Positions 579 to 15,991 of a stretch of DNA of 64,000 bases are shown here, piece by piece. A model generated the notes under the pieces. The model saw only the letters and a program-made list of their open reading frames with translations. It was not told the origin of the DNA and did not search any database. Every line of letters starts with the position of its first letter. The stretch's first letter is position 1. A program made the translations under genes and the position numbers. The stretch is from an uncultured Planctomycetia bacterium (GTDB lineage Bacteria > Omnitrophota > Gorgyraeia > Tantalellales > Tantalellaceae): the NCBI GenBank assembly GCA_964421015.1, contig CAYQUS010000001.1, positions 300,726-364,725 of the forward strand. Reading direction: 5' to 3'.

Positions 579-1321
579 CGAAGTATACCGCCTTCCTTTA
601 AAAGGCGCCTTGCCCTTGCGAGGTCCTCGGGAATGCCGATATCAATAAAAAAACCTTTGGAAACAAATACTTTAAGCCTTCCATTACGAAGCTTTTCCGG
701 AAAAACATCTTTTTCCAGAGAGAATGCCCCCTCCCTGGGAAAATCCTCGAGGTAATTCCTGGGAAAAACATAGCACCCGCTGTTTATAACCCCCGGACCG
801 CGTGAAATTTTCTCCTCAAATCCGGAGAGAAAGGCGCCCGACACATCGAGCCTCCCGTACCTTGAGGTGTCGGGCACTTCACAGCCGACTATAACTGGAA
901 TATGATCCTCTTTCCAGAAAGACTCTATCTCATCTATCTCTGCGTCAAAATAAGTATCTCCGTTAAAAACGAACACATGGTCCGAAGTACATCTTAACAT
1001 CGCCCCCTTCACCGCGCCGCCGGTGCCCAAAGGCTCCTTTTCTATCTCGTAAACCAACTCCAACTCACCGAAAGAATCCCCTATACGATGGATTATATTG
1101 TCGGCCATATGACCGACAGACAATACGACGCGCTTGAATCCTTTGCGCTCCAGGAGAGAAAGAAGGATCTCAAGGAACGGACGTCCATCCACAACCGCCA
1201 TGACTTTAGGCACATCGCTTATCATACTCCTAAGTCTGAGCCCCAGGCCCCCGGCAAGCACCACCGCTTCACGATGAGCGCCTTGTTTCACCGTCCCGGG
1301 AGATACTACATCACTTTCCAT
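575..1321 (-). CDS. Sugar-1-phosphate nucleotidyltransferase. Probably D-glycero-alpha-D-manno-heptose-1-phosphate guanylyltransferase (HddC-like).
   Basis: 248 aa. N-terminal VVLAGGLGLRLRS is the NTP_transferase G-loop (GGxGxRL). It lies next to a GHMP heptose-kinase-like gene, and a GT9 heptosyltransferase is in the locus. Confidence 0.65.
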   Translation of the reverse strand: MESDVVSPGTVKQGAHREAVVLAGGLGLRLRSMISDVPKVMAVVDGRPFLEILLSLLERKGFKRVVLSVGHMADNIIHRIGDSFGELELVYEIEKEPLGTGGAVKGAMLRCTSDHVFVFNGDTYFDAEIDEIESFWKEDHIPVIVGCEVPDTSRYGRLDVSGAFLSGFEEKISRGPGVINSGCYVFPRNYLEDFPREGAFSLEKDVFPEKLRNGRLKVFVSKGFFIDIGIPEDLARARRLLKEGGILR

Positions 1322-2337
1322 GCCTGCGCTCCGCTTTTCGTAAAATGAAAATTGCTCACTACTCCGCCGAACCCTTCTATGGTCTTTGTGACTTCCGCTC
1401 GCTTTTCGGGAGGAACAAAAAGAGCCATAAAACCGCCTCCGCCGGCTCCTGTAAGTTTTCCGGCCAGAGCCCCCGAGCGAAGAGCTCCTTTGTATATCTC
1501 CTCTATGCGAGGGTTAGACACCGACCTCGCTGAACGCTTCTTGTTCTCCCACCCGCTCTTCATGCACTCGACCATACCCGCAAAATCGCCTTTCAGAAGA
1601 CACTCTTTCATCACCAGCGCTTCCTGTTTCATCGCGTCCATGGCTTTTATCGTATCGGACAGACCTGACCTGACATTACTGCTCTGGTCGGAAATAATGC
1701 TAGCCGACTCCCGTGAAATGCCCGTATAAAAAAGAAGCATAGAAGCCTCAAGTTCAGAGATAACCCAATCCTTGACCCTCAGCGGATTAACGATAGCCCT
1801 GCCGTTATTATAAAATTCCATAAAATTAACCCCGCCGAACGCCGCGGAATACTGGTCCTGCCTCCCTCCCTGCAAACCGCAGTCGATCCGCTCTATCTTG
1901 AACGCGAGGCTCGCTATGCCATAATCGTCCAGAGGCAGGTTAAGGAATTCGGTAAATGCGCGGACCATGGCCACTACCAGTGTGGATGAAGACCCCAGCC
2001 CCGATCCGGGAGGCGCGTCGCAGTAAGTAGAAAGTTCGATGTGGAGCAGATTTCCTCCGTTCCAGCTACGGACCATCTCATTATACACAGCCCTGTGAAG
2101 GTCCATCCGTCCGGTCAGAGGAAACTCACCCCGCGCAGCCGGATCAAGGTCTTCTGTATCCTGGCCGATAATGGTAAACCGCACCTTAGATTCGTCCAGT
2201 GTCCTTATGCCCGCATAGACATACCTCGCGATAGCCGCATTGAGCACATAACCTCCGTAAACATCACAATACGGAGAAACATCCGTACCTCCGCCGGCAA
2301 GACCGAAACGAAGAGGAGCCCTTGCCCTGACTATCAT
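1306..2337 (-). CDS. GHMP-family sugar kinase. Probably D-glycero-alpha-D-manno-heptose-7-phosphate kinase (HddA-like).
   Basis: 343 aa. RAPLRFGLAGGGTD at the N-terminus matches HddA-type kinases. The GHMP ATP-binding loop PPGSGLGSSS and a C-terminal GAGGGGF are present. Confidence 0.7.
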   Translation of the reverse strand: MIVRARAPLRFGLAGGGTDVSPYCDVYGGYVLNAAIARYVYAGIRTLDESKVRFTIIGQDTEDLDPAARGEFPLTGRMDLHRAVYNEMVRSWNGGNLLHIELSTYCDAPPGSGLGSSSTLVVAMVRAFTEFLNLPLDDYGIASLAFKIERIDCGLQGGRQDQYSAAFGGVNFMEFYNNGRAIVNPLRVKDWVISELEASMLLFYTGISRESASIISDQSSNVRSGLSDTIKAMDAMKQEALVMKECLLKGDFAGMVECMKSGWENKKRSARSVSNPRIEEIYKGALRSGALAGKLTGAGGGGFMALFVPPEKRAEVTKTIEGFGGVVSNFHFTKSGAQAWKVM

Positions 2338-3143: not shown

Positions 3144-3868
3144 ATCTGCTCCGAGTTCAGGCCGTCGCGCCTTATGACCTTGTCCTCTACCACCTCGGTC
3201 GCCCCTATGCAACTGGAAACATTCGCGTCATCGAACACTATATACCCGCCTTCAGACATAAAGGGTTTTACGTTCTCATACGAGAAATCCACAGCCGAAC
3301 GTATATCGCAGTCAATATGAGCTAGCGCGACTTTGCCTGCCTCTGCCATCACGCCGGGCGCGGTTTCGCTGAAATCTCCCTTTACTATGATGAGATTACT
3401 CAGCCCAAGCCTCTCTACGTCCTTTCGTATCAACTTGGGATCCGCCCCCGAAAAATCTCCCCGATTATGCGCGTCTACCGCTTTGTCGGTCGCAGGCATG
3501 CCAGCGAAACTGTCCAGCGCAAAAACTGTCATCCCCGGATAAAGCTTACGGGCTATGTACGCCATAAAGATAGCATTACCGCATAGATACGCGCCGTATT
3601 CAACGATATGGCCGAACTCGCAGCGCCCCAGGAAGAACTTCATAATGAGAAACAGGTTCATGCGGTTAGCCTCGCTCATTACACTGCGGCTGCCGGCCGC
3701 GGCAAGAGCCTCCCGGTAAAGAGGATCGTCCAGCACCTTCTCCCGAAGGCCTCCGAACTGCAGCCCCCACCCTCGCTGGTACCCCTCGTAAACGTTCCTT
3801 CCTTTCCTTATCCCGGCTTGAAACCCTTTAAGTTCAGGTAAATATGTGTTCATGTTTTCTCCGTTCAC
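3089..3868 (-). CDS. TylF/MycF-family (macrocin-O-methyltransferase-like) SAM-dependent sugar O-methyltransferase.
   Basis: 259 aa. GHIVEYGAYLCGNAIFMA...FALDSFAGMP...IVKGDFSETAP...AHIDCDIRSAVDF...GGYIVFDD follows the TylF family layout. Confidence 0.65.
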   Translation of the reverse strand: MNGENMNTYLPELKGFQAGIRKGRNVYEGYQRGWGLQFGGLREKVLDDPLYREALAAAGSRSVMSEANRMNLFLIMKFFLGRCEFGHIVEYGAYLCGNAIFMAYIARKLYPGMTVFALDSFAGMPATDKAVDAHNRGDFSGADPKLIRKDVERLGLSNLIIVKGDFSETAPGVMAEAGKVALAHIDCDIRSAVDFSYENVKPFMSEGGYIVFDDANVSSCIGATEVVEDKVIRRDGLNSEQIWPHFVFRSFKKRGGGVS

Positions 3869-6800
3869 TACCTTTTGACCGCATGTATGTAGTGCTGGGC
3901 AGGGCCCAGGTGTCCGTATACTTCAGACCAGTAGAACTTCATGGAAACATCACGGAACCCTCCATTTTCCAGCATTTTAATAAGATCCCATCCGAAATCG
4001 GTGAAGACCAGAGAACCTTTACCGGTAAGAGGGTCGCCGTGGTAGATAGGCTCCGCGATGTGCTCTACCGCCCCTGAAACCAGACGGGCCCTCGAAAAAC
4101 TTTTATCCCTGTCCAGGTAGAGCGGCACTGTCATTATGAGACTCGCCTGCTTTTTCATAACCCTGCAAAGCTCCCTTACCGCGCTTAACGGATCAGGGAC
4201 ATGTTCAAGAACCTCATTGGTGACCACAATATCAAAAATCCCGTCCGTAAAACTCAGCCTGCAGATATCCTCGTGGCGTATACCTCCCACGACACTCCCG
4301 GGTGAGTATTTTCCTCCAAGATATTCGCTTCCTTCAAGTTGAAAATTAGGTAAAGCCTTTTCTGCCCACAGATAAAAAGAAGTCATCTTTTCCGTAAGAT
4401 ATGCTCTGCTTACCTTGTCACTCCTCCTAACCGCGATCTCCTGCAGGACCGACGCTATTGCCCTCTGCCTGTTATTCAGACCGCAGACCGGACAGACAAG
4501 CCTTTCCCTCCAGTTAGGTACCCATGTCCCGCCCGAAATAAAAGAACCGCACTCTTTATCTACCTTGAACCCCACATCCCGGCCGCATACTCTGCAATAC
4601 CCATTAAGCAGGAACCGATCGCTCCTTACATGCCGCATCATGACTTTCTTTTCCCTATTCCTTGAGATCATCTGTCCGTGAGAAACTGACCACTTATCAT
4701 ATTCTTCCTTAGTCTTTATTTCTTTCCAGTCCATCATGGCATCTTTACGCCTATCCGGCTCATACTTTGCGGTCTTTCGGAAATATGCAGCCATAGAGGG
4801 TATTCCTTTTTTCGCTTCGGGACTGTAAGACACCCCAGCGACATTGATAATATGCTTCATGGTATCCATTCCGGCTTCGAGGGAATAGTTCTTTTTTACG
4901 AACGCCAACCCACCCGTTGAAGAGGACTCCCAAAGCGCTTTATCCTCATAAAGTTCCGCTACGCGGGAAGCGAAAACATCCGGATCGTCGCCGACAAGAA
5001 CCCCGTCACCCGGAGAGAGCGACATCCCTTCGGCGCCTATGCTCGTGGAGACACAAGGTACCCCGTAGCTCAAGCTGGTCCCTATCTTTCCTTTTATACC
5101 AGCGCCGTAACGCAAAGGAACTACCGTGATACGGGCCCGGTCCATTTCCGAAGCCAGGTCCTCAACATAACCCGCGATATCTACCCCATGGCCCGCAAGA
5201 TCCCGCACATCATCAGGAATATGACTGCCGACTACGCGGAAAAACGTTCCAGGAAGTTTTTTCCTTACCAAAGGAAATATCTCTTTTACGAAATAAACAG
5301 CGGCATCCTTGTTCGGAAGATGCTGGAAACCGGCAACGAACAATATCCCGTCGCGACCGTCAAAGCTGCGCGTTCTTCCGGGAATATCTATTGCCCAGGG
5401 GAAAAGGCATATGCGGCTATCTTCCTGCTTCGAGTTCAGCTCTTCCTCGAGCATCGTCTTCTCAACGGTACTATGGACTATAACTGCATCCGATAAACGC
5501 ACGATAGCAAGCTCTTTTTCTTTCGTCTTTTTGGCTTTCCGCCGAAGGCTGTCAGACGATACAAGCTCAGCCTCTCTGCCTTCCCTAAGGTGATGAAGAT
5601 CTGAAGTATGCAAAATGTATTTAGCATCCGGACAGTGCCTTTTTATAGTCCGAATATTACGCTCGGCAGCCGTCATCCTGAAAGTTATTACAATATCATA
5701 CGTCTTACCGTATTTTGCCAGATGTTCTTCGAGCGAGGTGACGAACGGCGAATACAGGCACTCTATCCCCATCCGCTGCATATCACGGGTATACGGGGCC
5801 AGAAAAAGGAAATTATCTTCAGGCGCGAATGTAACCTTATACCCCATGCCGAGCAATATGCGCATGATATTAAGGGCCGTTATCGATCCGGCATCCTGGT
5901 CGGGTCTCGGCGTGCAGTGATCGATAACAAGCACCCGGCCACAAGAATACCTGTCTTTTTCAATAAAAGACCCGATCCCCGGAAGAGCGTGTTCGCGTAT
6001 ACGCTCTTTCCATTTTTCGTAAAGCCTGGCGGTATTTTCTTTCTGATAAGATTTAACCCCGCCGGACGTGTCTTTCCCGCATGTAACGCCTTCAAAATGA
6101 ACGACCCGCGAAAGAGGCTGGTAGATGACCCTTCGCCCCGCCTCCCTGACCCTGAAAGCAAGATCCGAATCCTCCCCATAGGCCGGAGAAAAACTTTCGT
6201 CAAAACCGCCAAGGCTGTCAAAAAGTTCCTTCTCTATCATGATCGACGCGCCGGAACAGTAATCCACATCCCTCATGTAGTTATACTCGGGACTTTCCGG
6301 GTCCTGCATCCTGCCGTAATTGCACCCCGAACCGTCCTGCCAAATGATCCCACCGGCCTCCTGCAGACGTCCGTCAGGATAGACCAGCTTTGATCCGACG
6401 AGTCCCGCGGAAGGGACACAGTTAAACGTCTCGACAAGCTCGTCAAGCCATCCGGGCCGGACTATCGTATCATTGTTGAGCATAACAAGAAGACGCCCCT
6501 TCGCGGCGCGAGCACCGGCGTTGCAGGATCTGACAAAACCCTCATTGCGGTCATTGCGGATCACCCTTATCCCTCCTATAGAGTTCAGCATTTCACGGGT
6601 AATATCCGAAGACGCATCGTCGACAACTATGACCTCAAAACTATAACCGGTCATGTGCGACATTAGGGACCTCAGGCACTGGTATGTATACTCGGCTTTA
6701 CCGAAAACCGGGATAATTACAGAAACTAAGGGTTTTTCCGGAAGAATAAGATCGAAAGGCTCTCCCGGTATGCCGGGAGAGCTGAATTTTTCAGGCAGGA

Positions 6801-7896
6801 ATGATCCGTAAAAAAAATAGGCCCCTGCCTGGCCATACTGTCCGGCCTCAGCGAAAAGACCGGGGAAAAGACCGTGAAGCTTCCTCTTTATCGCATGTCT
6901 GATCGGAGGAGAGAACGGAATAGCTTTATAAACAGCCTTCCCCAATAGCCGCAAGGATCCACCTGTTATCCGCGGAACAGAACGACACGTCTCCCCACAG
7001 TTACATAAAAACCGAGCCAGACGCCATGACCTGGAATTTAAAAGACTATTAAATTCCTCTCTAACTCCAAAAATCTCTTCTTTTGCCATTTCTAATTGAC
7101 CGGTTGTCTCGGATAAAAGATCAGATATCCTTTTGTTTTCCGATTTAAGCGCTTCCGACGCGGAACGCTCGTCGGACAATACTTTTTCCATAATACCGAA
7201 TGACGCTGCGTTACCCAGAACCTTGTAAGAATCTCTTATTTTCCCGGCGGTCGCGGCATCTAAAGAGAAAAGGTCCGGCAGATCCCTGGCAGCGTTTCTA
7301 CCCACGGCCAGAACACCCAAACCGCTTGAGTGATAAAATTCAAAACTCGGATATTCCGTTTTAAGCTTTGACCAGTATTCCCTGACACCAAAACCTGCCT
7401 TGTCCTCCGCTGTATCATGAAATAGCACTATACCTCGGGCGCTAAGTTTAGGCTTCCAGGTCTCAAAGTCATGACTGACAGCCTCAATGGTGTGCAGTCC
7501 GTCAATATGAAGAAGATCTATGGATCCGTCCTGGAATTCCGTTGCGGCGGCATCGAACGTCGTCCTCATAAGCCTGGAAAAGCTGCCGTAAGGAACATCA
7601 TGGCGGCGCATCAGGTCCTCAAATACCTCCTCCCCGTAATGACCGGAATGCTCATCCCCCTTCCATGTATCGACCGCGTAACATTTTGCCTCAAGGCCGT
7701 TCCTCTTTACTGCTTCGCAAAATGCCAGGTACGAGTCTCCCGCATAAGTACCCAGCTCAACAAAACACCGGGGATTGAATATCTTTATAAGGGAAAAAGC
7801 GAACGGGATATGCCCCTGCCATGACATTATCCTGCCGGGATCAACCTTCAAGTATTTCGTAAGATCCGAAAATGATATATCGAGAAACCTGTTCAT
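3868..7896 (-). CDS. 1342-aa multidomain glycan synthase. Order: N-terminal class I SAM methyltransferase, coiled coil, GT2 glycosyltransferase, GT4 (GT-B) glycosyltransferase, Cys4 zinc ribbon, C-terminal class I SAM methyltransferase.
   Basis: Single 4029-nt ORF. N-terminus: FVELGTYAGDSYLAF...LLHIDGLHTIEAV...VLFHDT (CmcI/TylF-like methyltransferase). Middle: VSVIIPVFGKAEYTYQCLRSL...EVIVVDDASSD...DSDLAFRVREAGRRV (GT2). Then VLVIDHCTPRPDQDAGS plus EGMSLSPGDGVLVGDD...GIKGKIGTSLSYGVPCVST (GT4). Then CRVCGRD...CPVCGLNN. C-terminus: FDIVVTNEVLEHVPDP...ASLIMTVP (Methyltransf_11-like). Confidence 0.75.
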   Translation of the reverse strand: MNRFLDISFSDLTKYLKVDPGRIMSWQGHIPFAFSLIKIFNPRCFVELGTYAGDSYLAFCEAVKRNGLEAKCYAVDTWKGDEHSGHYGEEVFEDLMRRHDVPYGSFSRLMRTTFDAAATEFQDGSIDLLHIDGLHTIEAVSHDFETWKPKLSARGIVLFHDTAEDKAGFGVREYWSKLKTEYPSFEFYHSSGLGVLAVGRNAARDLPDLFSLDAATAGKIRDSYKVLGNAASFGIMEKVLSDERSASEALKSENKRISDLLSETTGQLEMAKEEIFGVREEFNSLLNSRSWRLARFLCNCGETCRSVPRITGGSLRLLGKAVYKAIPFSPPIRHAIKRKLHGLFPGLFAEAGQYGQAGAYFFYGSFLPEKFSSPGIPGEPFDLILPEKPLVSVIIPVFGKAEYTYQCLRSLMSHMTGYSFEVIVVDDASSDITREMLNSIGGIRVIRNDRNEGFVRSCNAGARAAKGRLLVMLNNDTIVRPGWLDELVETFNCVPSAGLVGSKLVYPDGRLQEAGGIIWQDGSGCNYGRMQDPESPEYNYMRDVDYCSGASIMIEKELFDSLGGFDESFSPAYGEDSDLAFRVREAGRRVIYQPLSRVVHFEGVTCGKDTSGGVKSYQKENTARLYEKWKERIREHALPGIGSFIEKDRYSCGRVLVIDHCTPRPDQDAGSITALNIMRILLGMGYKVTFAPEDNFLFLAPYTRDMQRMGIECLYSPFVTSLEEHLAKYGKTYDIVITFRMTAAERNIRTIKRHCPDAKYILHTSDLHHLREGREAELVSSDSLRRKAKKTKEKELAIVRLSDAVIVHSTVEKTMLEEELNSKQEDSRICLFPWAIDIPGRTRSFDGRDGILFVAGFQHLPNKDAAVYFVKEIFPLVRKKLPGTFFRVVGSHIPDDVRDLAGHGVDIAGYVEDLASEMDRARITVVPLRYGAGIKGKIGTSLSYGVPCVSTSIGAEGMSLSPGDGVLVGDDPDVFASRVAELYEDKALWESSSTGGLAFVKKNYSLEAGMDTMKHIINVAGVSYSPEAKKGIPSMAAYFRKTAKYEPDRRKDAMMDWKEIKTKEEYDKWSVSHGQMISRNREKKVMMRHVRSDRFLLNGYCRVCGRDVGFKVDKECGSFISGGTWVPNWRERLVCPVCGLNNRQRAIASVLQEIAVRRSDKVSRAYLTEKMTSFYLWAEKALPNFQLEGSEYLGGKYSPGSVVGGIRHEDICRLSFTDGIFDIVVTNEVLEHVPDPLSAVRELCRVMKKQASLIMTVPLYLDRDKSFSRARLVSGAVEHIAEPIYHGDPLTGKGSLVFTDFGWDLIKMLENGGFRDVSMKFYWSEVYGHLGPAQHYIHAVKR

Positions 7897-7899
7897 CCC

Positions 7900-8514
7900 C
7901 TATTTGATCCCTCTCGTCAAAACAGCATTCTGCACTTTCAGCTTTACCGTATCCATAAAGTTACCTACTATTCCCCTGTCTGGCTTTCTCGCTACAAGCA
8001 CTGAATCATGCCACCAATCGCTCCCGTCAGAATAACCTTTATCATCCCAGAAAGTCACGGCCTCTATGACCTCGAGCCCCGCGAAATCCGCCATAGCCCT
8101 CATTCCATCCGGGTAGAACCTCCAGCAATCTACCGGGTAACGATGTTCCGGACCGCTTGAAGGCGCTATGATACAAACAAACCCCCCTGGCCTCAAAACC
8201 CTGGCGATTTCGGCCATGGTTATCCAAAAATAACGTATATGCTCGAAAGCCTGTCCCGAAACTACCACATCAACCGAGCTCGACGCTATGCTCCGCCAGG
8301 AATAAGGGTCAGAAAGCACTACATCCACATTCTTCCCGGAAGCCATATCGACCCCTGTATAGTTCCACTTCTCCCGTGCCAAAATATCACGATAGCTGCC
8401 GTTAACATCCTGACTGCCAAGATCAAATATGCTAAGACGTCGTCCTGCCATAGGCGCCAGGTAACGATCTCTGAACAATATCATTTTCTCGATTGAACTT
8501 CTATGCATGATCAC
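7900..8514 (-). CDS. Class I SAM-dependent methyltransferase.
   Basis: 204 aa. IFDLGSQDVNGSY...VDVVVSGQAFEHIRYF...LRPGGFVCIIAPS. The stop overlaps the upstream start as ATGA. Confidence 0.6.
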   Translation of the reverse strand: MIMHRSSIEKMILFRDRYLAPMAGRRLSIFDLGSQDVNGSYRDILAREKWNYTGVDMASGKNVDVVLSDPYSWRSIASSSVDVVVSGQAFEHIRYFWITMAEIARVLRPGGFVCIIAPSSGPEHRYPVDCWRFYPDGMRAMADFAGLEVIEAVTFWDDKGYSDGSDWWHDSVLVARKPDRGIVGNFMDTVKLKVQNAVLTRGIK

Positions 8515-9497
8515 CCCTTACCCCGGACCTGACATCCGGATATATCCCTCCGGACGAAAGCGTCCATCCCCGGCACATCATAAGTGAAATACGAGGGAAG
8601 TCCGTTCGCCATACAAAGCTTGCACACCGCGCTCGACTTTCTCTTCCGCTGGATCTCATCGAGAGCATCATCAAGATAATTCCCTATGACGAACTTACTT
8701 TCATCATAAACAGCGCAGCACAAGAGCGCATCTCCTCTGCAATTTAAAGTTATCTGTTCATCAAGGAGCCTGCACCGCGATATGGCTTTTCCTCTCATCT
8801 CGGCAACCGCTTTTTTCGGAGGCATGATAAGGTCTCCCACCAGACGCTCATCCTCTTCGGTAATTTCAGACAACGGCAATATACCGCAGATGGCCATAAC
8901 CTTTTCCAACGGCAGGAATAGCGCGTCCACAGTCTGTAAAAGCACCTCATTCTCGCGACAATATTCCGCTATTACAGCCTCATCGGCAACATTAGAACGA
9001 TAGCGGTGAAACGCCACCGATATCCTGGTCGAAGGACATATGCCAGTTTTTTCCTTCAAAAGAAAATCCAGATTATCCCTCAAAAGCCCCAGATCTCCGC
9101 CCCTGTGAGTCCTTTCGTATGTTTCTTTCCTGAACCCTGACAACGAGACGCGTAAAATATCGGGACCCGCTGCGATAAGTTTTTTCAGAACATTCTTAGG
9201 AACGTTCAGATTAGTGCTTATGGAACATTTTATCCCGCAGGATCTCACTACCCTTACCATATCATCTATCTCGGGATGAAGAAGCGGTTCCGACCAGTTA
9301 AAAAGCCCTACCCCGGTAATTTTACATTCCTTTGCGGCTTTGGCAAGTATCCGATGAAGAGTATCCGGAGACATCATCCCTTTAGCGTTATCGCCACGCT
9401 GGCTGTTCCCTGACGGACATGAGGGGCACCGTAGATTACATCCTGAAACGACATCGACATAAAAGTGCATTTTGGGTTTTTCAGCAACCATTACCAC
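8511..9497 (-). CDS. Radical SAM domain protein with a Cys-rich C-terminal SPASM/twitch-like region.
   Basis: 328 aa. FYVDVVSGCNLRCPSCP is the canonical CxxxCxxC [4Fe-4S] motif. The C-terminus has CRLLDEQITLNCRGDALLCC and CKLCMANG cysteine clusters. Confidence 0.7.
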   Translation of the reverse strand: MVMVAEKPKMHFYVDVVSGCNLRCPSCPSGNSQRGDNAKGMMSPDTLHRILAKAAKECKITGVGLFNWSEPLLHPEIDDMVRVVRSCGIKCSISTNLNVPKNVLKKLIAAGPDILRVSLSGFRKETYERTHRGGDLGLLRDNLDFLLKEKTGICPSTRISVAFHRYRSNVADEAVIAEYCRENEVLLQTVDALFLPLEKVMAICGILPLSEITEEDERLVGDLIMPPKKAVAEMRGKAISRCRLLDEQITLNCRGDALLCCAVYDESKFVIGNYLDDALDEIQRKRKSSAVCKLCMANGLPSYFTYDVPGMDAFVRRDISGCQVRGKG

Positions 9498-9503
9498 CCC
9501 GCG

Positions 9504-10277
9504 TCAGGCCCGCGTTATCCAGGCATCGGGCCAATATGTCAGCTCTTCGACAACAAACGCCTCCCCGTACATAGCACCGGGGCGCTCTATTTTAAATTCA
9601 GGATGTGTACGGACAAATTCACGCGCCGCTTCAGCCGGATTATCCGATAGCCACTCTTTCCTGCCGTTCGGCGTATCCGCCAGGCGTTCCATTATCCCAT
9701 CTGCGGCCACAATGTATGATCCGGAGCCTACAAGTGTAGCGTAGATCTCCAGCTCTTTCGACACATGATTCCTGGAATGGTCGCTGTCCAGGAAAACAAA
9801 GACCTTTTCGCCGGCCGAGATGTTTTCCTTCACTTTCCTTACGGTATCATCTGACACAGAAGAACCCTCAATAAGTGTGATAAGATCAGAGAATGGGCTC
9901 TTCCCTATGCTGCGGCGCACTTCCTGAGGTATAGTGATATCAATAGAAATAACTTTCCCCTTCCCCATAAGACGACAAATCGAAGCAAAAAAAACGGCGC
10001 TTCCTCCCCGACTCACCCCGGTCTCAATAATAACATCAGGTTTTATAGTGAACACAGATTCCTGGAGCCTCATAAGATCCTCGGGAAACTGCCATATCGG
10101 AAAACCACACCAGGAAAACGACTGCCAATGCAAACTGTTCCACTCCTGTTTTATCCACAGGTCTGACAATGATCTAAAACCCTCAGGAGAATATAACCCG
10201 AACCTTTTCTCTTCCCCGCTCGAGCTCACTGTTGTTACCGTTTTGTCCGCATCGTCTATAATAATTCTCATAAGCAC
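9504..10277 (-). CDS. CmcI-family (cephalosporin-hydroxylase-like) SAM-dependent O-methyltransferase, of the kind that O-methylates rhamnosyl or sugar residues.
   Basis: 257 aa. WQFPEDL...KPDVIIETGVSRGGSAVFFA...KVFVFLDSDHS is the CmcI family pattern. Confidence 0.6.
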   Translation of the reverse strand: MLMRIIIDDADKTVTTVSSSGEEKRFGLYSPEGFRSLSDLWIKQEWNSLHWQSFSWCGFPIWQFPEDLMRLQESVFTIKPDVIIETGVSRGGSAVFFASICRLMGKGKVISIDITIPQEVRRSIGKSPFSDLITLIEGSSVSDDTVRKVKENISAGEKVFVFLDSDHSRNHVSKELEIYATLVGSGSYIVAADGIMERLADTPNGRKEWLSDNPAEAAREFVRTHPEFKIERPGAMYGEAFVVEELTYWPDAWITRA

Positions 10278-10285
10278 CCGCCCCC

Positions 10286-11047
10286 CTAACGCGTCGCCAC
10301 TAAAGTGAATAGTTCTATCTTTTTGTTCATCGGCACAAAAAAGTGTTTAGAAACTGAGAGATCGAACTTGTTAAACCCTCTGAGCTCCAACAAGTTCTCA
10401 AACACCTTAGGCCCTATCCACCACCATGTCCATGCCCCAAAACTTTTGGCCCTTTCTCTTTTGGGCATGAATTCCATCAGTGGCCGCTTCAGATCCATAT
10501 CTGGAGGCAGTCGGTCAGTGATTATTATCGCTTCCTTAGCCCTGTCGGCAGCGAATTGGATAGCGCCCACGGGATTACGTGTGTGCAGAAGCACGGAACC
10601 GAACGTAACAACATCGAAATCGCCCAGCTCTTCCGGAATATCGTATATCGATCCGAAACTGAGTTCGAGTTTTGACCCTAAACGGTTACGGCAATAATAC
10701 CACCCATTATTAAGCCTGCCCATGGTCGAACGCATAGTCCTTTCGACTTCGCGATAATCCTGATCCGAGGTCGGCATAATATCCCAGCTATGAGACGGAG
10801 AAAGATCATAGGGAGTAACTACTGCCCCTTCCTTTTCCATCCAGAAAGCATGACTACCCGTGGCCGTTCCGATCTCAAGAACAGTCTTTCCCTTAAAATC
10901 AAAACTGCCATGGTATTCGCGTTCAGTATATCTGAAATCCCATTGCCCTGGGGTAGGCTCCTCTCCGGGAAGATCTATAACATGAAAAAACGCACATTCT
11001 TCTCTTTTTGGATCCTGATCCACCTTTTGATAACCGACCTTATCCAT
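10286..11047 (-). CDS. Class I SAM-dependent methyltransferase.
   Basis: 253 aa. Motif I KTVLEIGTATGSHAF, then FDVVTFGSVLLHTRNP. Confidence 0.6.
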   Translation of the reverse strand: MDKVGYQKVDQDPKREECAFFHVIDLPGEEPTPGQWDFRYTEREYHGSFDFKGKTVLEIGTATGSHAFWMEKEGAVVTPYDLSPSHSWDIMPTSDQDYREVERTMRSTMGRLNNGWYYCRNRLGSKLELSFGSIYDIPEELGDFDVVTFGSVLLHTRNPVGAIQFAADRAKEAIIITDRLPPDMDLKRPLMEFMPKRERAKSFGAWTWWWIGPKVFENLLELRGFNKFDLSVSKHFFVPMNKKIELFTLVATR

Positions 11048-12158: not shown

Positions 12159-13118
12159 TCATCCGTTTACCTGTTTTTCATAATTCAGAAAATGAGCCTC
12201 CAGTTCACGCAATGCCGTCAAGTCGACTTCGCCCGGGAAGTGATCTTTGATCGAATTATAATACGCCGCCGCTTCACGGATATTTTTCGACCCTGAAAAA
12301 CTTTTACAGGCACCCTTAACTCCAGAGCTGTTTATTTTTTCCTTGAGTGGCAAAAGACAATCAGAAGAAAATACCTCCCCCAGAAAGTCCAGACAATCTT
12401 TGAGCGTTTTTTCCGGAGACGCTATCAGATCATCGTATTTTATCCTCATCACCCTCCCCCGACCAAGCGCTCGCTCCCCCTTAACCGCATAACTCACTGA
12501 CCGCATCCATCGCGCACAAGCATCATCACTTTTGATGTCCTTTCCGGCACCCCCTGCTCCCGAGAATCCGGTGAAAGAACTCACGACAGCCACGGGGTCT
12601 CGTAGCAGGTGTATAAACTTCGCTTCCGGAAAAAGTTTTGCAAGCGCATACATATAGAAAGTATTCTCCGGGCCGCCGTCCACCCATCGTTTTTTCGAAT
12701 CATCCGGAGACCGGACTACCTGATAATTCCCGGCCGAAACCACACCCGGATCAGGACTCAATAAACCGTTCCGTTCCATACTCTTTATGTTTTCTTCGGG
12801 AACAATGTGATTTGAAACTGACAACTTCCGTATAAATCTGAGACGGGGTTCTCGCGTATCAGTTATAAACTGATCGACTGCCTTCCCGAAAGCAGCGTAA
12901 AAATCGTTTTCATCCCAATCAAGCGCGCTTAAGTGGGAATATCTTCCGTGTACTGTTCCGAACCTGTAAAGTTCTTTCATCCTGACAGCCAATCTTGCTA
13001 TCCAATGCGTTTCCGGGAGCGGCAGTATATTCGGATGCTGACCAAGGCACCATGTTAGGACACTGGTCCCTGATCTGCCCGATCCGACTATAAATATCGG
13101 TTTGTTATCAGACTGCAT
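12159..13118 (-). CDS. Sulfotransferase (PAPS-dependent, bacterial Sulfotransfer_3-like).
   Basis: 319 aa. PIFIVGSGRSGTSVLTWCLGQHP is the 5-prime-PSB PAPS-binding loop. It is a paralog of the adjacent gene. Confidence 0.65.
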   Translation of the reverse strand: MQSDNKPIFIVGSGRSGTSVLTWCLGQHPNILPLPETHWIARLAVRMKELYRFGTVHGRYSHLSALDWDENDFYAAFGKAVDQFITDTREPRLRFIRKLSVSNHIVPEENIKSMERNGLLSPDPGVVSAGNYQVVRSPDDSKKRWVDGGPENTFYMYALAKLFPEAKFIHLLRDPVAVVSSFTGFSGAGGAGKDIKSDDACARWMRSVSYAVKGERALGRGRVMRIKYDDLIASPEKTLKDCLDFLGEVFSSDCLLPLKEKINSSGVKGACKSFSGSKNIREAAAYYNSIKDHFPGEVDLTALRELEAHFLNYEKQVNG

Positions 13119-13122
13119 ATTC

Positions 13123-14172
13123 TCACCGTCCCCAGATTTCCGATAAACTTCTTAAAAAAGATCCCGTCGTGCGAATAAGCCCGGCTTTCGCCAAACGCAA
13201 ACAGTTTATCCATTGACATTGTTCTTCTCTAGACGCAGACAAAAATCTTTTTTCTAAAACACAGAGTGCCCCAAAATCCGGTTCCGCTGGAGGAAACGTA
13301 TGCATGATCTCACGATACAATATGTTCGCGCGCCTGCCTTCAGGGGATGCGGGATCCGGCTCGTTCAGATCAGCGCCAGATGTCCTGGAACTGTTCATCC
13401 TTTCATTTAACGGCAAAAGACAGTCCTGACAAAATGGCTCTCCCAGAAAAGACAGGCATCTCCTTACAACACTTTCCGGATCCGTCTCCAATTCAGAATA
13501 ATTTATTCTCAGAACTTTACCCGCCCCCAGCGCTTTTTCCGCCGTCACAACATCGCTAGTCGCCTTTACCCATACCCGGTAAGCATCCTTTTGGCTGTAA
13601 TCCGCCGTTTTCTTATTAGCCTTGGAAAAATTCATGAGGGAACGTGCCACCGCATCTGGTTCCCTTAAAATATGTATGAATTTCGCCCCGGGGAAAAGCA
13701 GTGATAAACCGTAAATGTGCCTACTGTTCCCCGGAGCCCCGTCAACCCATCTTCTCTTGGGATCGCTGGGGCTTCTCTCTACACAACAACTCCTTCTCGT
13801 GTTACTAAGAGAAGACCGCAAGCCAGGCATATCGGTTCGAACTTTACCGTTCCTTATAAAACTCAGACGAGGCTCGCGTGTATCCACCACAAACCTGTAT
13901 ATGGCATGCCCCAACTCGGAGTAAAAATCATTCTCAGACCATCCGAGTGCCCCTATGTGGGAATAATGTCCGTTGGCCGTGCCCGCTTCATAAAGCTCTT
14001 TCATCATGGTCGTAAGCCTGAAAAGCCAGTTCGTTTCGGGAAGAGGCAATATATTAGGATGCTGTCCGAGACACCAGGTCATAACACTACTGCCGGACCT
14101 TCCGGACCCTACAATAAAGATCGGGTTATCCGTCACTTCCCCTCCGGTATTGTCAGAAAAATCTCTGTTCAT
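13123..14172 (-). CDS. Sulfotransferase, tandem paralog of 12159-13118.
   Basis: PIFIVGSGRSGSSVMTWCLGQHPNILPLPETNW is nearly identical to the neighbour over the first ~90 residues. The longest ORF starts at 14244 but overlaps the ABC exporter gene by 92 nt. Start trimmed to the ATG at 14172 (protein begins MNRDFSDN). Confidence 0.6.
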   Translation of the reverse strand: MNRDFSDNTGGEVTDNPIFIVGSGRSGSSVMTWCLGQHPNILPLPETNWLFRLTTMMKELYEAGTANGHYSHIGALGWSENDFYSELGHAIYRFVVDTREPRLSFIRNGKVRTDMPGLRSSLSNTRRSCCVERSPSDPKRRWVDGAPGNSRHIYGLSLLFPGAKFIHILREPDAVARSLMNFSKANKKTADYSQKDAYRVWVKATSDVVTAEKALGAGKVLRINYSELETDPESVVRRCLSFLGEPFCQDCLLPLNERMNSSRTSGADLNEPDPASPEGRRANILYREIMHTFPPAEPDFGALCVLEKRFLSASREEQCQWINCLRLAKAGLIRTTGSFLRSLSEIWGR

Positions 14173-15991
14173 TCCAGTACCTGTAAAATTTACCTTTCTT
14201 ATCAAGAAGCTCCGATAACGCGCCCTGTTCAGCCACGGTTCCATCTTCCAGGACCACTATCTTGTCGGCACCTCGTATCGTGAAAAACCTGTGCGCCGCC
14301 ACAATGGCCGTTCGGCCCGAAACTGCGTCGCTAATGGCCTCCTGTATGAGTTTCTCTGTACTCGAATCGAGCGAGCTAGTAGCTTCATCAAGTATAATTA
14401 TCTCCGCATCTCTGAGAAGCGCCCTGGCAATGGACAAACGCTGCTTCTCTCCTCCGGATAGTTGCGCGCCCCTTTCTCCTATAACCGTATCAAACCCATC
14501 GGGAAGACGCTTTATCAGCATATCTATCCGGGCTTTTACGGACGCTTCCATAAGCTCCTCTTCACTCACTTCCCGGTCGAGCCCATACGTCATATTCATC
14601 CTAATGGTGTCGTTAAAGAAAAAAGCATCCTGGCTCACGTAAGCTATCTTATCGAGAAGCGACTGTATCTTAAGATCTCGGATATCCGTACCGTCGAGTA
14701 ATATTGTCCCCGCCGGACAATCGTAAAACCGCATAATAAGGTGTATTAGTGTCGTCTTACCCGACCCCGTGGCGCCGACAATAGCCGTCATCTGCCCTTT
14801 ATTAAAAACCAGGGAAATGCCTTTCAATACCATATTCCTGCCGTCATAGGAAAAATCCAATCCCCTCACCTCTATACCGCTCCCTATGCCGGTAAACTCC
14901 CGAGTACCATCGGATAGAATGAACTTTTTTTCATCATCAAGCACTTCCAGTATCTTTTCTATCCGGGCACTGGATATGTTGAGATTTACCCTGAACTGAT
15001 TTATGGCGTTAAAACCGGGAAGAGAAAGTCTGGCAATGTAGAAAAAAACCAGATACGACGAAATGTTCCCTTTTCCCGAAGGCAAAAGGAACGCGACAGC
15101 CGAAGCCAGGGCAATAAACGCGACCGTCATACACAGTTCCTGTATGTGCGGAATGAGCCTTCCCTTCCTGTCGAGGCGGAACGATAATCGCGCCTCCTCT
15201 CTATTGGCTTCCTGGAACAGAGACTTTTCCCAATGTTCCATATTGTGAGCCTTTACCAGAGGCATCGCCATAAGAACGCTGAATATCCGGTCATCCAGGT
15301 CTTCCTCCGCCTTGACCTGTGCCCTCGAGATATTTCGTATACTGGCAGTGACCCACTGTGCCAGAAGAACAAAAAATGGGAATATGCACAACATAAGAGA
15401 TGTTAATTCCCATGAAATATACAGCATTATCCCCAAATACGCGGCAAGCGACAAAACCTGGCTGATAAGTTTCTGAATGTTATTAAGCTGCGCCGAGGTA
15501 GAAGAGGAAAATTTCATAATAACGGTATTTATCCTGCCGAGACTCGCCTTGTCGAAAAAGGATTTCCCGAACTTAAGATACCGTTCGAACATAAGCGACC
15601 TCAAACTGCCGGTCGCCCGCCGAACCAGGTAAGTCACGCCAATGTCCGACATGTACTGCAAAGTAAGTTTCGCCAGGGTTACAGCAAAAATCGACGTTAC
15701 AAGTACCAAGAAAACCGCCTCGAACTGTCCTGTCCCGGAAATAAAGGGACCAACTATGTTCTTCAGGACCGGCACACTGCCGACAAAACCGTAATCCCGG
15801 GTTATCATCACCCTTAAGGCCGCCATCAAAAGCTGGAGATTAAGCACCTGGAAAAGTATCGTCACGGAAGAAAGAAGTATCGTCAGGACAAAATAGCCCC
15901 GGTTCACACCCATTGTTTCCATGAACCGTATCAGGCGTATAGTTTCGGATGCCACCCCTAAATTTCTGTGATCATGATAATTCTTTTTCAT
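14153..15991 (-). CDS. ABC transporter, fused permease/ATPase (type I exporter, MsbA/PglK-like).
   Basis: 612 aa. N-terminal half has about six TM helices. Walker A GATGSGKTT, ABC signature LSGGEKQRLSIARAL, Walker B IIILDEATSSLD. Confidence 0.85.
   Translation of the reverse strand: MKKNYHDHRNLGVASETIRLIRFMETMGVNRGYFVLTILLSSVTILFQVLNLQLLMAALRVMITRDYGFVGSVPVLKNIVGPFISGTGQFEAVFLVLVTSIFAVTLAKLTLQYMSDIGVTYLVRRATGSLRSLMFERYLKFGKSFFDKASLGRINTVIMKFSSSTSAQLNNIQKLISQVLSLAAYLGIMLYISWELTSLMLCIFPFFVLLAQWVTASIRNISRAQVKAEEDLDDRIFSVLMAMPLVKAHNMEHWEKSLFQEANREEARLSFRLDRKGRLIPHIQELCMTVAFIALASAVAFLLPSGKGNISSYLVFFYIARLSLPGFNAINQFRVNLNISSARIEKILEVLDDEKKFILSDGTREFTGIGSGIEVRGLDFSYDGRNMVLKGISLVFNKGQMTAIVGATGSGKTTLIHLIMRFYDCPAGTILLDGTDIRDLKIQSLLDKIAYVSQDAFFFNDTIRMNMTYGLDREVSEEELMEASVKARIDMLIKRLPDGFDTVIGERGAQLSGGEKQRLSIARALLRDAEIIILDEATSSLDSSTEKLIQEAISDAVSGRTAIVAAHRFFTIRGADKIVVLEDGTVAEQGALSELLDKKGKFYRYWNEQRFF

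What the first reader, a model, noticed from the sequence alone, without database searches (positions are those of the whole stretch)
8511..9497. Radical SAM enzyme with a Cys-rich C-terminus sits between methyltransferase genes in the glycan locus.
The CxxxCxxC motif (CNLRCPSC) and C-terminal cysteine clusters indicate a radical-SAM enzyme, possibly of the SPASM/twitch type. The gene is translationally coupled to neighbouring SAM methyltransferases through ATGA overlaps. Radical-SAM enzymes in sugar pathways do chemically difficult steps. These include C-methylation, epimerisation at unactivated carbons, deoxygenation, and anSME-like oxidation relevant to sulfate-ester metabolism. Its substrate here is not obvious.
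Basis: partly seen in the sequence, partly recalled or inferred. Interest (0 to 1): 0.6.

Follow-up and report, generated by a model that had tools for sequence, protein, structure and literature searches.

The report
Uncharacterised twitch radical-SAM glycan-tailoring enzyme
The gene encodes a real radical-SAM enzyme with one extra iron-sulfur cluster domain, from a widespread but unstudied family that sits beside methyltransferases in bacterial surface-sugar loci and is sometimes fused to glycosyltransferases, so it probably does a radical step on a sugar chain that nobody has yet defined.

Summary
Window 8511-9497 (minus strand) encodes a 326-328 aa radical SAM protein with CNLRCPSC at residues 20-27. 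Its C-terminal cysteines (C242, C260, C261, C292, C295) are 99-100% conserved in 251 relatives.

The cysteine spacing and the predicted topology match a twitch domain, which is a truncated SPASM domain holding one auxiliary cluster, as in BtrN. The protein is not an anSME, MoaA, QueE, BlsE or B12-dependent enzyme, and no curated family claims it. The family has about 860 clusters at 50% identity across many phyla.

The gene lies in a Candidatus Omnitrophota locus for a methylated, sulfated, probably heptose-containing glycan. A cassette of CmcI-like methyltransferase, radical SAM enzyme and small methyltransferase recurs in the closest relatives. Methyltransferases are the most common immediate neighbours across the family. 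Some members are fused to GT2/GT4 glycosyltransferases and a methyltransferase.

The claimed ATGA overlaps are wrong: the gaps are 2 nt and 12 nt.

My best reading is radical tailoring of a sugar residue during glycan assembly, most likely epimerisation with Cys261 as the hydrogen donor, or BtrN-like oxidation. The chemistry is inferred, not shown. This is a new family within a known superfamily, of moderate interest.

The parts
8511..9497 (-). Radical SAM enzyme with a twitch domain (328 aa from GTG 9497; likely start ATG 9491, giving 326 aa; stop TGA at 8511-8513).
   Evidence: The ORF is listed. Pfam Radical_SAM scores 3.1e-12 and SPASM scores 22.6 bits. The AF2 model has pLDDT 95.4. Foldseek places it with BlsE, MoaA, anSME, SuiB, BtrN and EpeE at TM about 0.5-0.6.
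9417..9440 (-). CX3CX2C motif (C20, C24, C27; CNLRCPSC), which binds the SAM-cleaving [4Fe-4S] cluster.
   Evidence: The motif was read from the sequence. The three cysteines are present in 247-248 of 251 family members, and the rest are alignment gaps.
8613..8774 (-). Twitch (truncated SPASM) region: C242-x12-G255-x4-C260-C261 ... C292-x2-C295.
   Evidence: Pfam SPASM covers residues 242-286, matching profile positions 1-46 of 67. In 251 members C242, C260 and C295 are 100% conserved, C292 is 99.2% and C261 is 98.8%. The predicted beta-hairpin (248-251 and 256-258) lies between C242 and C260, and the CxxC follows helix 279-287. The family profile aligns C242 and C260 with the two BtrN cysteines that flank its hairpin.
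9504..10277 (-). CmcI / rhamnosyl O-methyltransferase-like methyltransferase, immediately upstream; a cassette partner.
   Evidence: Pfam RMNT_CmcI scores 4.4e-62. It is 60% identical to the syntenic L087 gene. It lies next to the radical SAM gene in L083, L085, L087 and L089.
7900..8514 (-). Small class-I methyltransferase (Methyltransf_11), immediately downstream; a cassette partner. Likely start ATG 8508.
   Evidence: Pfam result. It is 63% identical to the L087 orthologue, aligned from MHRSS. A methyltransferase of 201-203 aa occupies the same position in L083, L087 and L089.
3868..7896 (-). 1342-aa multidomain protein with Methyltransf_24, GT2, GT4 and Methyltransf_11 domains; a glycan polymerase/modifier.
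   Evidence: Pfam result. A protein of the same architecture (1334-1368 aa) lies downstream of the cassette in L081 and L087. Its GT2 domain is 31% identical to the GT2 domain of the radical SAM fusion protein P0298.
10286..11047 (-). Class-I methyltransferase (Methyltransf_23).
   Evidence: Pfam result. It is syntenic with L087 2110-2859.
12159..14244 (-). Two Sulfotransfer_3 sulfotransferases (12159-13118 and 13123-14244).
   Evidence: Pfam E-values are 6e-32 and 1e-29. Sulfotransferases are also present in L081, L083, L085, L088 and L089.
14153..15991 (-). Fused ABC exporter (transmembrane domain plus ATPase domain) of the HepA/MsbA type.
   Evidence: Pfam result; NCBIfam HepA_fam_ABC scores 1.4e-128, below its cut-off.
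575..2337 (-). HddC-like nucleotidyltransferase (575-1321) and HddA-like GHMP kinase (1306-2337); probable supply of a GDP-heptose-type precursor.
   Evidence: Pfam result. NCBIfam gives full-length matches to HddA (376 bits) and HddC (169 bits), both below their cut-offs. The same gene pair is present in L081.
19793..22651 (-). CysN/CysC fusion and CysD; they supply PAPS for the sulfotransferases.
   Evidence: Pfam APS_kinase, GTP_EFTU and PAPS_reduct hits.

Best explanation
Shown:
- The gene encodes a member of an unnamed family of twitch-type radical SAM enzymes.
- An N-terminal CX3CX2C motif holds the [4Fe-4S] cluster that cleaves SAM to the 5'-deoxyadenosyl radical.
- A C-terminal truncated SPASM (twitch) domain offers four invariant cysteines (C242 before the beta-hairpin, C260 after it, and C292/C295 after the next helix). 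This is the arrangement that fully ligates one auxiliary [4Fe-4S] cluster in BtrN.
- A fifth, non-canonical cysteine (C261) is also almost invariant.
- The gene belongs to a conserved cassette of CmcI-like methyltransferase, radical SAM enzyme and small class-I methyltransferase. The cassette sits inside an operon-like array for a methylated, sulfated, probably heptose-based surface glycan of a Candidatus Omnitrophota bacterium.

Inferred:
- The enzyme acts on a sugar residue during glycan assembly, on the lipid-linked or growing chain or on the residue just before or after transfer, rather than in early nucleotide-sugar synthesis.
- The 5'-deoxyadenosyl radical abstracts a hydrogen from a hydroxyl-bearing sugar carbon.
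- Cys261 then returns a hydrogen to the opposite face, giving an epimer, and the auxiliary cluster re-reduces the thiyl radical. This is the logic proposed for EpeE, and from my memory also for HygY and NeoN.
- The close alternative is that the auxiliary cluster oxidises the sugar radical to a keto-sugar, as in BtrN.
- The neighbouring methyltransferases then methylate the re-configured or newly exposed position.
For: Domain and fold:
- Pfam hits to Radical_SAM and to the first half of SPASM.
- AF2 model with pLDDT 95.4 and a hairpin plus helix twitch topology.
- Foldseek finds only SPASM/twitch-group and related radical SAM structures, at TM about 0.5-0.6.
- The family profile aligns C242 and C260 with the BtrN hairpin cysteines.
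- PMC6231123 and PMC9012708 give the twitch definition and the four-cysteine ligation in BtrN.

Five C-terminal cysteines:
- They are 98.8-100% conserved in 251 members, whereas C58 (55%) and C91 (73%) are not.
- There is precedent for a non-ligand cysteine acting as hydrogen donor, with the auxiliary cluster proposed to reduce the thiyl radical, in the twitch epimerase EpeE (PMC13012085). EpeE is itself among the structural hits.

Glycan role:
- The cassette is conserved in the near-orthologue loci L083, L085, L087 and L089. L081 has a TylF methyltransferase in place of CmcI.
- Among 133 immediate neighbours in 82 loci, Methyltransf_24 matches 12 (of which RMNT_CmcI 8) and Methyltransf_11 and Methyltransf_23 match 12 each. 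Among 133 control ORFs 6-7 genes away, those generic families match only 3-4 and Methyltransf_24 is not in the top 25.
- CmcI-like genes and the exporter genes Wzm, Wzt and Wzx lie within 3 genes of the radical SAM gene, while nucleotide-sugar genes lie further out.
- Fusion proteins exist: radical SAM-GT4-GT2 (P0283), radical SAM-methyltransferase-GT4-GT2 (P0298) and radical SAM-GT2-GT2 (P0306). A probable GT-B-fold domain fused to the radical SAM domain is also common.
- There is no room for a precursor-peptide gene; gaps around the gene are at most 48 nt.
Against: - No member of the family has been characterised, so no substrate or product is known.
- The model coordinates could not be inspected. 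The positions of C261 and the auxiliary site relative to the SAM site are therefore unverified, and C261 rather than C260 could be the cluster ligand.
- Neighbour enrichment may only reflect that tailoring genes cluster together.
- The neighbouring sugar pathways differ across the family (heptose here; 6-deoxyhexose and C-methyl sugar genes elsewhere), while the active-site residues are invariant. That fits a common substrate feature that I cannot name.
- Some members are fused to TPR or ankyrin repeats or sit next to GT41-TPR genes, which could point to protein substrates.
- One fusion protein (P0298) has SxxC in place of C292xxC295.
Confidence: 0.4

Rival explanations
1. BtrN-type radical SAM dehydrogenase. 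The sugar radical is oxidised through the fully ligated auxiliary cluster to a keto-sugar, which is then methylated next to the carbonyl, transaminated or reduced by other enzymes.
For: - The cysteine topology is the same as in BtrN.
- Fully ligated auxiliary clusters are linked with two-electron oxidations (PMC9012708).
- DegT aminotransferases lie within 3 genes in 8 of 79 loci.
Against: - The fifth near-invariant cysteine (C261) is not needed for a dehydrogenase.
- No reductase or aminotransferase was found among the ORFs scanned between 575 and 25276 of the window.
- Similarity to BtrN is only 25 bits and about 16% identity.
Confidence: 0.2
2. Radical elimination enzyme in the style of AprD4 or DesII. 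Hydrogen abstraction next to a carbon bearing a leaving group (hydroxyl, or here possibly a sulfate ester installed by the neighbouring sulfotransferases) leads to elimination and a deoxy-keto sugar.
For: - Sulfotransferases and PAPS supply genes are conserved in the window and in all six near-orthologue loci.
- DesII is among the fold matches.
- The radical 1,2-elimination chemistry itself is established knowledge for DesII and AprD4 (from my memory).
Against: - No sulfotransferase group stood out among the recurrent neighbour clusters or the 25 commonest neighbour families in the 80 wider family loci.
- No partner reductase was seen.
- As I recall, DesII has no auxiliary cluster.
Confidence: 0.1
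3. Protein- or peptide-modifying SPASM/twitch maturase that acts on a glycoprotein or a carrier protein rather than on a sugar.
For: - The best NCBIfam similarities are to protein and peptide maturases (W_rSAM_matur 71 bits, ScmF, StsB).
- Family members are fused to TPR or ankyrin repeats (P0325, P0330, P0344, P0262).
- A distant subclade sits next to GT41-TPR genes.
Against: - All the NCBIfam scores are far below their cut-offs.
- There is no RiPP recognition element and no small ORF beside the gene.
- In the window's own clade, the fusions and neighbours are glycosyltransferases and sugar methyltransferases.
Confidence: 0.1
4. A radical methylating or carbon-carbon/carbon-oxygen bond-forming enzyme that works together with the adjacent methyltransferases. 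One example would be acting on an O-methyl group to build an acetal or a branched substituent.
For: - The association with methyltransferases is strong and evolutionarily wide, and includes a direct radical SAM-methyltransferase fusion.
- The conserved CC pair leaves a spare thiol.
Against: - There is no cobalamin domain and no HemN-like second SAM site.
- No known precedent exists for a twitch enzyme doing this on sugars.
- The idea is purely inferential.
Confidence: 0.1

Closest known systems
BtrN (2-deoxy-scyllo-inosamine dehydrogenase; twitch radical SAM; PDB 4M7T)
   Same: - It has a partial TIM-barrel radical SAM core followed by a twitch domain.
- It has one cysteine before the beta-hairpin, one after it, and a CxxC after the following helix, which fully ligate one auxiliary [4Fe-4S] cluster.
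- It acts on a carbohydrate-like substrate.
   Different: - It shares only about 16% identity, with a profile score of 25 bits.
- This protein is about 80 residues longer, with an insertion (residues about 190-240) between the core and the twitch domain.
- This protein has an extra invariant cysteine (C261).
- The context is a glycan locus rather than an aminoglycoside cluster.
EpeE/YydG (twitch radical SAM peptide epimerase; PDB 8AI1-8AI6); from my memory, also the sugar epimerases HygY and NeoN
   Same: - It has a twitch-type domain with one auxiliary cluster.
- It has a conserved non-ligand cysteine that donates the hydrogen atom.
- EpeE is a structural hit at TM about 0.55.
   Different: - EpeE acts on a peptide.
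- Identity is only 10-12%.
- The position of C261 relative to the active site could not be checked.
anSME (anaerobic sulfatase-maturing enzyme; full SPASM; PDB 4K36-4K39)
   Same: - It has the radical SAM core and the first half of the SPASM motif (CX9-15GX4C).
- It is a structural hit at TM about 0.57.
   Different: - This protein lacks the CX2CX5CX3C...C part and therefore the second auxiliary cluster.
- There is no sulfatase partner nearby.
- The sulfur genes in this locus make sulfate esters rather than cleave them.
BlsE (cytosylglucuronate decarboxylase; PDB 7VOB)
   Same: - It is the best Foldseek hit (E 1.9e-11) and has weak sequence similarity over the core.
- Its substrate is sugar-derived.
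   Different: - The TIGR04466 model scores 33 bits against a cut-off of 400.
- Identity is 18%.
- The context is different.
WsaE / WbdD-type multidomain glycan polymerase-modifier enzymes (from my memory)
   Same: - In the fusion proteins P0283, P0298 and P0306, the radical SAM domain takes the place of an N-terminal modifying domain ahead of glycosyltransferase domains.
- The window keeps the same order as separate genes: radical SAM enzyme, methyltransferase, then the MT-GT2-GT4-MT giant protein.
   Different: - The known modifying domains in these enzymes are methyltransferases or kinases, never a radical SAM domain.
- A chain-end capping role for this enzyme is conjecture.

Membership tests
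Radical SAM superfamily | CX3CX2C motif binding a [4Fe-4S] cluster, with a match to the family profile. | tested here: met
   C20, C24 and C27 form the motif. Pfam PF04055 scores 47.4 bits against a cut-off of 29.5. The motif is conserved in the family.
Radical SAM superfamily | [quoted passage not shown] | tested here: met
   The AF2 model (pLDDT 95.4) has six beta/alpha units. All top Foldseek hits are radical SAM structures.
Twitch subclass (truncated SPASM, one auxiliary cluster) | CX9-15GX4C around a beta-hairpin, plus further cysteines after the next helix, and no CX2CX5CX3C block. | tested here: met
   The protein has C242-x12-G255-x4-C260 with the hairpin at 248-258, and the C292xxC295 pair follows helix 279-287. 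The SPASM profile is matched only over positions 1-46 of 67. The motif definition comes from PMC6231123.
Twitch subclass (truncated SPASM, one auxiliary cluster) | Actually binds a second Fe-S cluster. | not testable with these tools
   This needs iron and sulfide analysis, Mossbauer or EPR spectroscopy on reconstituted protein.
anSME | Full seven-cysteine SPASM motif binding two auxiliary clusters. | tested here: not met
   Only five conserved C-terminal cysteines are present and there is no CX2CX5CX3C block.
anSME | Partner sulfatase with a Cys/Ser-X-P-X-R motif, and a match to the equivalog model. | tested here: not met
   No sulfatase was found among the 28 window ORFs scanned. No anSME model appears among the 25 best NCBIfam hits shown (33 matched), and none of those 25 reaches its cut-off.
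Cobalamin-dependent radical SAM methyltransferases (GenK, Fom3) | N-terminal B12-binding domain. | tested here: not met
   There is no PF02310 hit, and the radical SAM core starts at about residue 10. By contrast, a B12-binding radical SAM gene does exist in the orthologous locus L081.
MoaA | Score above the equivalog cut-off. | tested here: not met
   NF001199 scores 43.3 against 231, TIGR02666 scores 37.2 against 284, and TIGR02668 scores 35.3 against 325.
QueE | Score above the equivalog cut-off. | tested here: not met
   TIGR03963 scores 24.6 against 260.
BtrN family | Orthology to BtrN. | tested here: not met
   The family profile scores 25-26 bits against BtrN, mostly over the N-terminal 80 residues. 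Foldseek gives 16% identity.
Cysteine-dependent twitch epimerases (EpeE; HygY and NeoN from my memory) | A conserved non-ligand cysteine placed opposite SAM across the substrate. | tested here: inconclusive
   C261 is 98.8% conserved beyond the four canonical ligands. Its position in three dimensions could not be examined because no coordinates were available.

The most novel reading that the evidence does not exclude
This family would be the first radical SAM module built into bacterial surface-glycan assembly machines. It would act on the growing or finished lipid-linked chain, for example by epimerising an unactivated sugar carbon or creating a chain-end structure. It would work in concert with dedicated methyltransferases, and in some organisms as a domain of the polymerising glycosyltransferase itself.
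Probability: 0.3. Interest if true: 0.75.

Novelty: new variant of a known kind. Interest (0 to 1): 0.5.

Why it matters
Radical SAM chemistry on carbohydrates is known almost only from antibiotic pathways such as BtrN, DesII, AprD4, BlsE, NeoN and HygY. A widespread family tied to O-antigen/S-layer-type glycan loci would extend that chemistry to cell-surface polysaccharides. The family has about 860 clusters at 50% identity and relatives in 201 stretches among GTDB species representatives. It has conserved methyltransferase partners and is sometimes fused to glycosyltransferases.

Such an enzyme could explain rare sugar configurations in environmental bacteria. The conserved three-gene cassette and the natural fusion proteins give concrete constructs for finding the substrate. 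However, uncharacterised SPASM/twitch enzymes are very numerous, so the existence of another one is not surprising in itself.

Tried and rejected
- Exact look-up of the window protein's own contig found nothing.
- Literature searches for a characterised radical SAM enzyme in O-antigen or glycan loci, and for PDB entry 8WM2, gave nothing relevant.
- A PDB sequence search with the C-terminal 93 residues alone gave no useful hit.
- An apparent 859-aa fusion in L015 is an artefact of a GC-rich open frame.
- The roughly 400-aa N-terminal domain fused to the radical SAM domain in several alphaproteobacterial-type members has no Pfam or PDB sequence match. Only a modest-confidence model links it to the GT-B fold.
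- The 341-aa neighbour at 11085-12110 could not be tied to sulfotransferases by BLAST against L089's sulfotransferase.
- The methyltransferase domain of P0298 shows no significant BLAST match to the window's small methyltransferase.
- The anSME, MoaA, QueE, BlsE and B12-dependent methylase readings were rejected on profile scores and domain content.
Full report
**1. Is it there?**

Window 8511-9497 on the minus strand is an open reading frame of 328 codons from GTG 9497. The NCBI copy of the same protein (P0001, 326 aa, 100% identical) starts two codons later. That start is ATG 9491, which lies behind a GGGGTGG stretch.

CNLRCPSC occupies residues 20-27 (window 9417-9440). Pfam gives Radical_SAM E 3.1e-12 (47.4 bits, cut-off 29.5, residues 17-146). 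It gives SPASM 22.6 bits (cut-off 21.5) over residues 242-286, but only against profile positions 1-46 of 67. In the whole 64-kb window this is the only CxxxCxxC motif in an ORF of at least 150 aa, and the only match to the family profile.

The flanking genes are a CmcI / rhamnosyl-O-methyltransferase-like gene (9504-10277, E 4e-62) and a small Methyltransf_11 gene (7900-8514). So the core observation is correct.

The stated ATGA overlaps are not. The radical SAM stop is TGA at 8513-8511. The downstream methyltransferase aligns from its third codon (ATG 8508, MHRSS...) with residue 1 of a 63%-identical orthologue, leaving a 2-nt gap. The upstream CmcI stop (9506-9504) is 12 nt from ATG 9491.

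**2. What kind of radical SAM enzyme?**

No curated NCBIfam model comes near its cut-off:

| Model | Score (bits) | Cut-off (bits) |
|---|---|---|
| Tungsten-cofactor maturase TIGR04317 (best hit) | 71 | 380 |
| MoaA models | 35-43 | 231-325 |
| BlsE | 33 | 400 |
| QueE | 25 | 260 |

There is no B12-binding domain.

An alignment of 36 relatives, and then 116, shows conserved cysteines beyond the SAM-cluster motif. In 251 diverse members aligned to the family profile, the conservation is as follows:

| Cysteine | Conservation |
|---|---|
| C242 | 100% |
| C260 | 100% |
| C261 | 98.8% |
| C292 | 99.2% |
| C295 | 100% |
| C58 | 55% |
| C91 | 73% |
| C322 | not conserved |

C242-x12-G255-x4-C260 is the CX9-15GX4C first half of the SPASM motif. 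The CX2CX5CX3C second half is missing. A truncated SPASM domain with one auxiliary cluster is by definition a twitch domain (PMC6231123 and PMC9012708).

The AlphaFold model is confident (pLDDT 95.4, pTM 0.92). It shows six beta/alpha units, then a beta-hairpin (248-251 and 256-258) between C242 and C260, and the CxxC after helix 279-287. This is the arrangement described for BtrN: one cysteine before the hairpin, one after it, and two after the following helix, fully ligating a [4Fe-4S] cluster. The family profile aligns C242 and C260 with the corresponding BtrN cysteines.

Foldseek against the PDB returns BlsE, MoaA, anSME, SuiB, CteB, BtrN, viperin, EpeE, SkfB and DesII. All have TM about 0.5-0.6 and 10-18% identity. 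The protein therefore belongs to the SPASM/twitch group but has no close solved relative. I could not inspect coordinates, so the geometry of the cysteines is inferred from sequence and predicted secondary structure only.

**3. The family**

The word-indexed search found 441 relatives. The nearest non-identical ones are 45-51% identical, and all are named generically. A profile search of 1.84 billion cluster representatives found 861 at E <= 1e-30. Of 219 pattern-matched stretches in the 185,579 GTDB species genomes, 201 encode a relative. These span Proteobacteria, Acidobacteriota, Planctomycetota, Nitrospirota, Desulfobacterota, Cyanobacteria, Verrucomicrobiota, Patescibacteria and others, and nearly all are MAGs.

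The window itself is from Candidatus Omnitrophota. Its UDP-GlcNAc 2-epimerase is 99% identical to an Omnitrophota MAG protein, and two of the next named hits (69% and 64% identity) are also Omnitrophota.

**4. Context in the window**

All genes from 575 to 23802 run on the minus strand. In order of transcription they are:

- a GT9 glycosyltransferase;
- CysD and CysN/C, which supply PAPS;
- a PMT_2/ArnT-like protein;
- GT4 and GT2 glycosyltransferases;
- a HepA/MsbA-type ABC exporter;
- two Sulfotransfer_3 genes;
- a 341-aa unknown protein;
- a Methyltransf_23 gene;
- the CmcI-like methyltransferase;
- the radical SAM gene;
- the small methyltransferase;
- a 1342-aa protein with Methyltransf_24, GT2, GT4 and Methyltransf_11 domains;
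- a TylF-like methyltransferase and another methyltransferase;
- an HddA-like kinase and an HddC-like nucleotidyltransferase.

The HddA and HddC matches are full length but below the NCBIfam cut-offs. A GDP-heptose-type precursor is therefore likely but not proven. The product is evidently a heavily methylated, sulfated surface glycan.

**5. Context elsewhere**

Near-orthologue loci (45-49% identity) repeat the design.

- L087 is fully syntenic: a 341-aa unknown protein, Methyltransf_23, CmcI, radical SAM, a 201-aa methyltransferase, a 1334-aa giant protein and a GT2. Its flanking methyltransferases are 60-63% identical to those of the window.
- L083, L085 and L089 carry CmcI next to the radical SAM gene, with sulfotransferases nearby; in L083 and L089 it is followed by a methyltransferase of about 202 aa, while in L085 the downstream gene is cut off by the contig end.
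- L081 has Wzm, Wzt, a sulfotransferase, the radical SAM gene, a TylF methyltransferase, a methyltransferase, a 1368-aa giant protein, then a kinase, a nucleotidyltransferase and a HAD phosphatase.

Across 82 non-redundant loci I took the ORF on each side of the radical SAM gene (133 ORFs) and scanned them against Pfam. The commonest families were:

| Pfam family | Immediate neighbours (of 133) |
|---|---|
| Methyltransf_24 (including RMNT_CmcI 8 and TylF 3) | 12 |
| Methyltransf_23 | 12 |
| Methyltransf_11 | 12 |
| GT2 | 7 |
| ABC_tran | 5 |
| C-methyltransferase | 4 |
| Wzt_C | 4 |
| GT41 | 4 |

A control set of 133 ORFs lying 6-7 genes away gave Methyltransf_23 4, Methyltransf_11 3, and Methyltransf_24 not among the top 25. 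That set was led by SDR, RmlD and NTP-transferase genes.

With sequence clusters, CmcI-like genes were within 3 genes in 9 loci against 4 loci at distance 4-9. The figures were 7 against 0 for Wzm, 6 against 0 for Wzt and 4 against 0 for Wzx. Dehydratase/epimerase, C-methyltransferase, RmlC and nucleotidyltransferase genes were commoner further out. In distant members (L005, L007, L060) the radical SAM gene is followed by a class-I methyltransferase, with a CmcI-like gene next in L005 and L060.

So the radical SAM gene sits in the tailoring/export part of glycan loci, next to methyltransferases, and not in the nucleotide-sugar block.

**6. Fusions**

Among the best 150 representatives are several fusion proteins:

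- P0283 (1104 aa): radical SAM, GT4, GT2.
- P0298 (1309 aa): radical SAM, Methyltransf_11, GT4-like, GT2.
- P0306 (977 aa): radical SAM, GT2, GT2.

The GT2 domain of P0298 is 31% identical (E 2e-31) to the GT2 domain of the window's giant protein. P0298 is thus the window's three consecutive genes in one chain.

At least six further representatives, and loci L030, L040 and L041, carry a roughly 400-aa N-terminal domain without any Pfam or PDB sequence match. A modest model of it (pLDDT 71) resembles GT-B enzymes such as GT9 heptosyltransferases, at E about 1e-5 and TM about 0.4. Other members are fused to TPR or ankyrin repeats. A distant subclade of about 452 aa sits beside GT41-TPR genes and a 495-aa unknown protein.

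**7. Mechanism**

The following is shown: a SAM-cleaving cluster site, a twitch domain with four canonical ligands, and a fifth invariant cysteine adjacent to one of them.

From established knowledge, fully ligated auxiliary clusters in BtrN, anSME and SuiB are linked with electron transfer from substrate radicals. In the twitch epimerase EpeE, a non-ligand cysteine (C223) quenches the substrate radical from the opposite face, and the auxiliary cluster is proposed to re-reduce the thiyl radical.

I therefore rank epimerisation of a sugar carbon via Cys261 first and BtrN-like oxidation to a keto-sugar second. A DesII/AprD4-like elimination comes third; here sulfate could serve as the leaving group, but sulfotransferases did not stand out among the recurrent neighbours in the wider family. 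A protein or peptide substrate and a methyl-linked bond-forming reaction are the remaining rivals.

The glycosyltransferase fusions and the position beside exporter and methyltransferase genes suggest action at or near the glycan-chain level. None of the chemistry is demonstrated.

**8. Comparison and novelty**

The protein works like a twitch radical SAM enzyme. It is not a member of the BtrN, anSME, MoaA, QueE, BlsE or B12-dependent methylase families; the features tested are listed in the membership table. It is best described as a new, unnamed subfamily of a known superfamily, in a context (surface-glycan assembly) where radical SAM enzymes are, to my knowledge, essentially undescribed.

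Interest is moderate. The family is coherent and widespread, has conserved partners and natural fusions that make it experimentally tractable, and could reveal new carbohydrate radical chemistry. However, uncharacterised SPASM/twitch proteins number in the hundred thousands, and nothing here is mechanistically anomalous.

Noticed in passing
window 11085-12110 (-): This 341-aa ORF has no Pfam or NCBIfam match. A 341-aa protein without a Pfam match holds the same position in the syntenic locus L087 (969-1994). Its N-terminus (LYLHIGRAKTGSSAIQ) looks like a PAPS-binding loop of sulfotransferases. BLAST against a sulfotransferase from L089 found nothing.
   Followed up: partly
window 575-2337 (-): The GHMP kinase and the nucleotidyltransferase give full-length best matches to HddA and HddC of the GDP-D-glycero-D-manno-heptose pathway, but both are below the curated cut-offs (376 against 600 bits, and 169 against 300). 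The same pair plus a HAD phosphatase is present in L081. The glycan is therefore probably heptose-based.
   Followed up: partly
window 3868-7896 (-): This 1342-aa protein combines Methyltransf_24, GT2, GT4 and Methyltransf_11 domains. Two CxxC pairs (CRVCG ... CPVCG) lie just before the last methyltransferase domain and look like a zinc ribbon. An SWR/SWK-containing helical segment is shared with the fusion protein P0298.
   Followed up: no
L081 1-2216; L085 2843-4168; L088 4864-6345: The orthologous loci carry extra radical SAM genes that the window lacks. They include a B12-binding radical SAM gene, a 331-aa SPASM protein, a 441-aa protein whose SPASM motif lies N-terminal to the core, and a 493-aa protein.
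   Followed up: partly
L030 8765-10975, L040, L041; P0253, P0255, P0258, P0259, P0261, P0272: A roughly 400-aa N-terminal domain of unknown family is fused to the radical SAM domain. It has no Pfam or PDB sequence hit. A model with pLDDT 71 weakly resembles GT-B enzymes such as GT9 heptosyltransferases and UDP-GlcNAc 2-epimerases.
   Followed up: partly
L058, L062, L067, L068, L071, L076: A distant subclade of the family (about 452 aa) always sits next to a GT41-TPR protein and a 495-aa protein with no Pfam match, in Gammaproteobacteria and Cyanobacteria. It may serve a different, possibly protein-linked, function.
   Followed up: no
window 18319-19809, 30718-32601, 32603-34258, 59967-61655 (-): The window encodes four PMT_2/ArnT-like membrane glycosyltransferases. 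Of the 28 ORFs scanned against Pfam, 24 matched glycan-related families and four had no hit, and nearly all lie on the minus strand. The window comes from a Candidatus Omnitrophota MAG.
   Followed up: no
window 8511-9497, residues 58 and 91: Two further cysteines are moderately conserved (C58 55%, C91 73%). Both sit at the N-terminal ends of adjacent predicted strands beta2 and beta3, away from the expected active-site face. Their role is unknown.
   Followed up: partly
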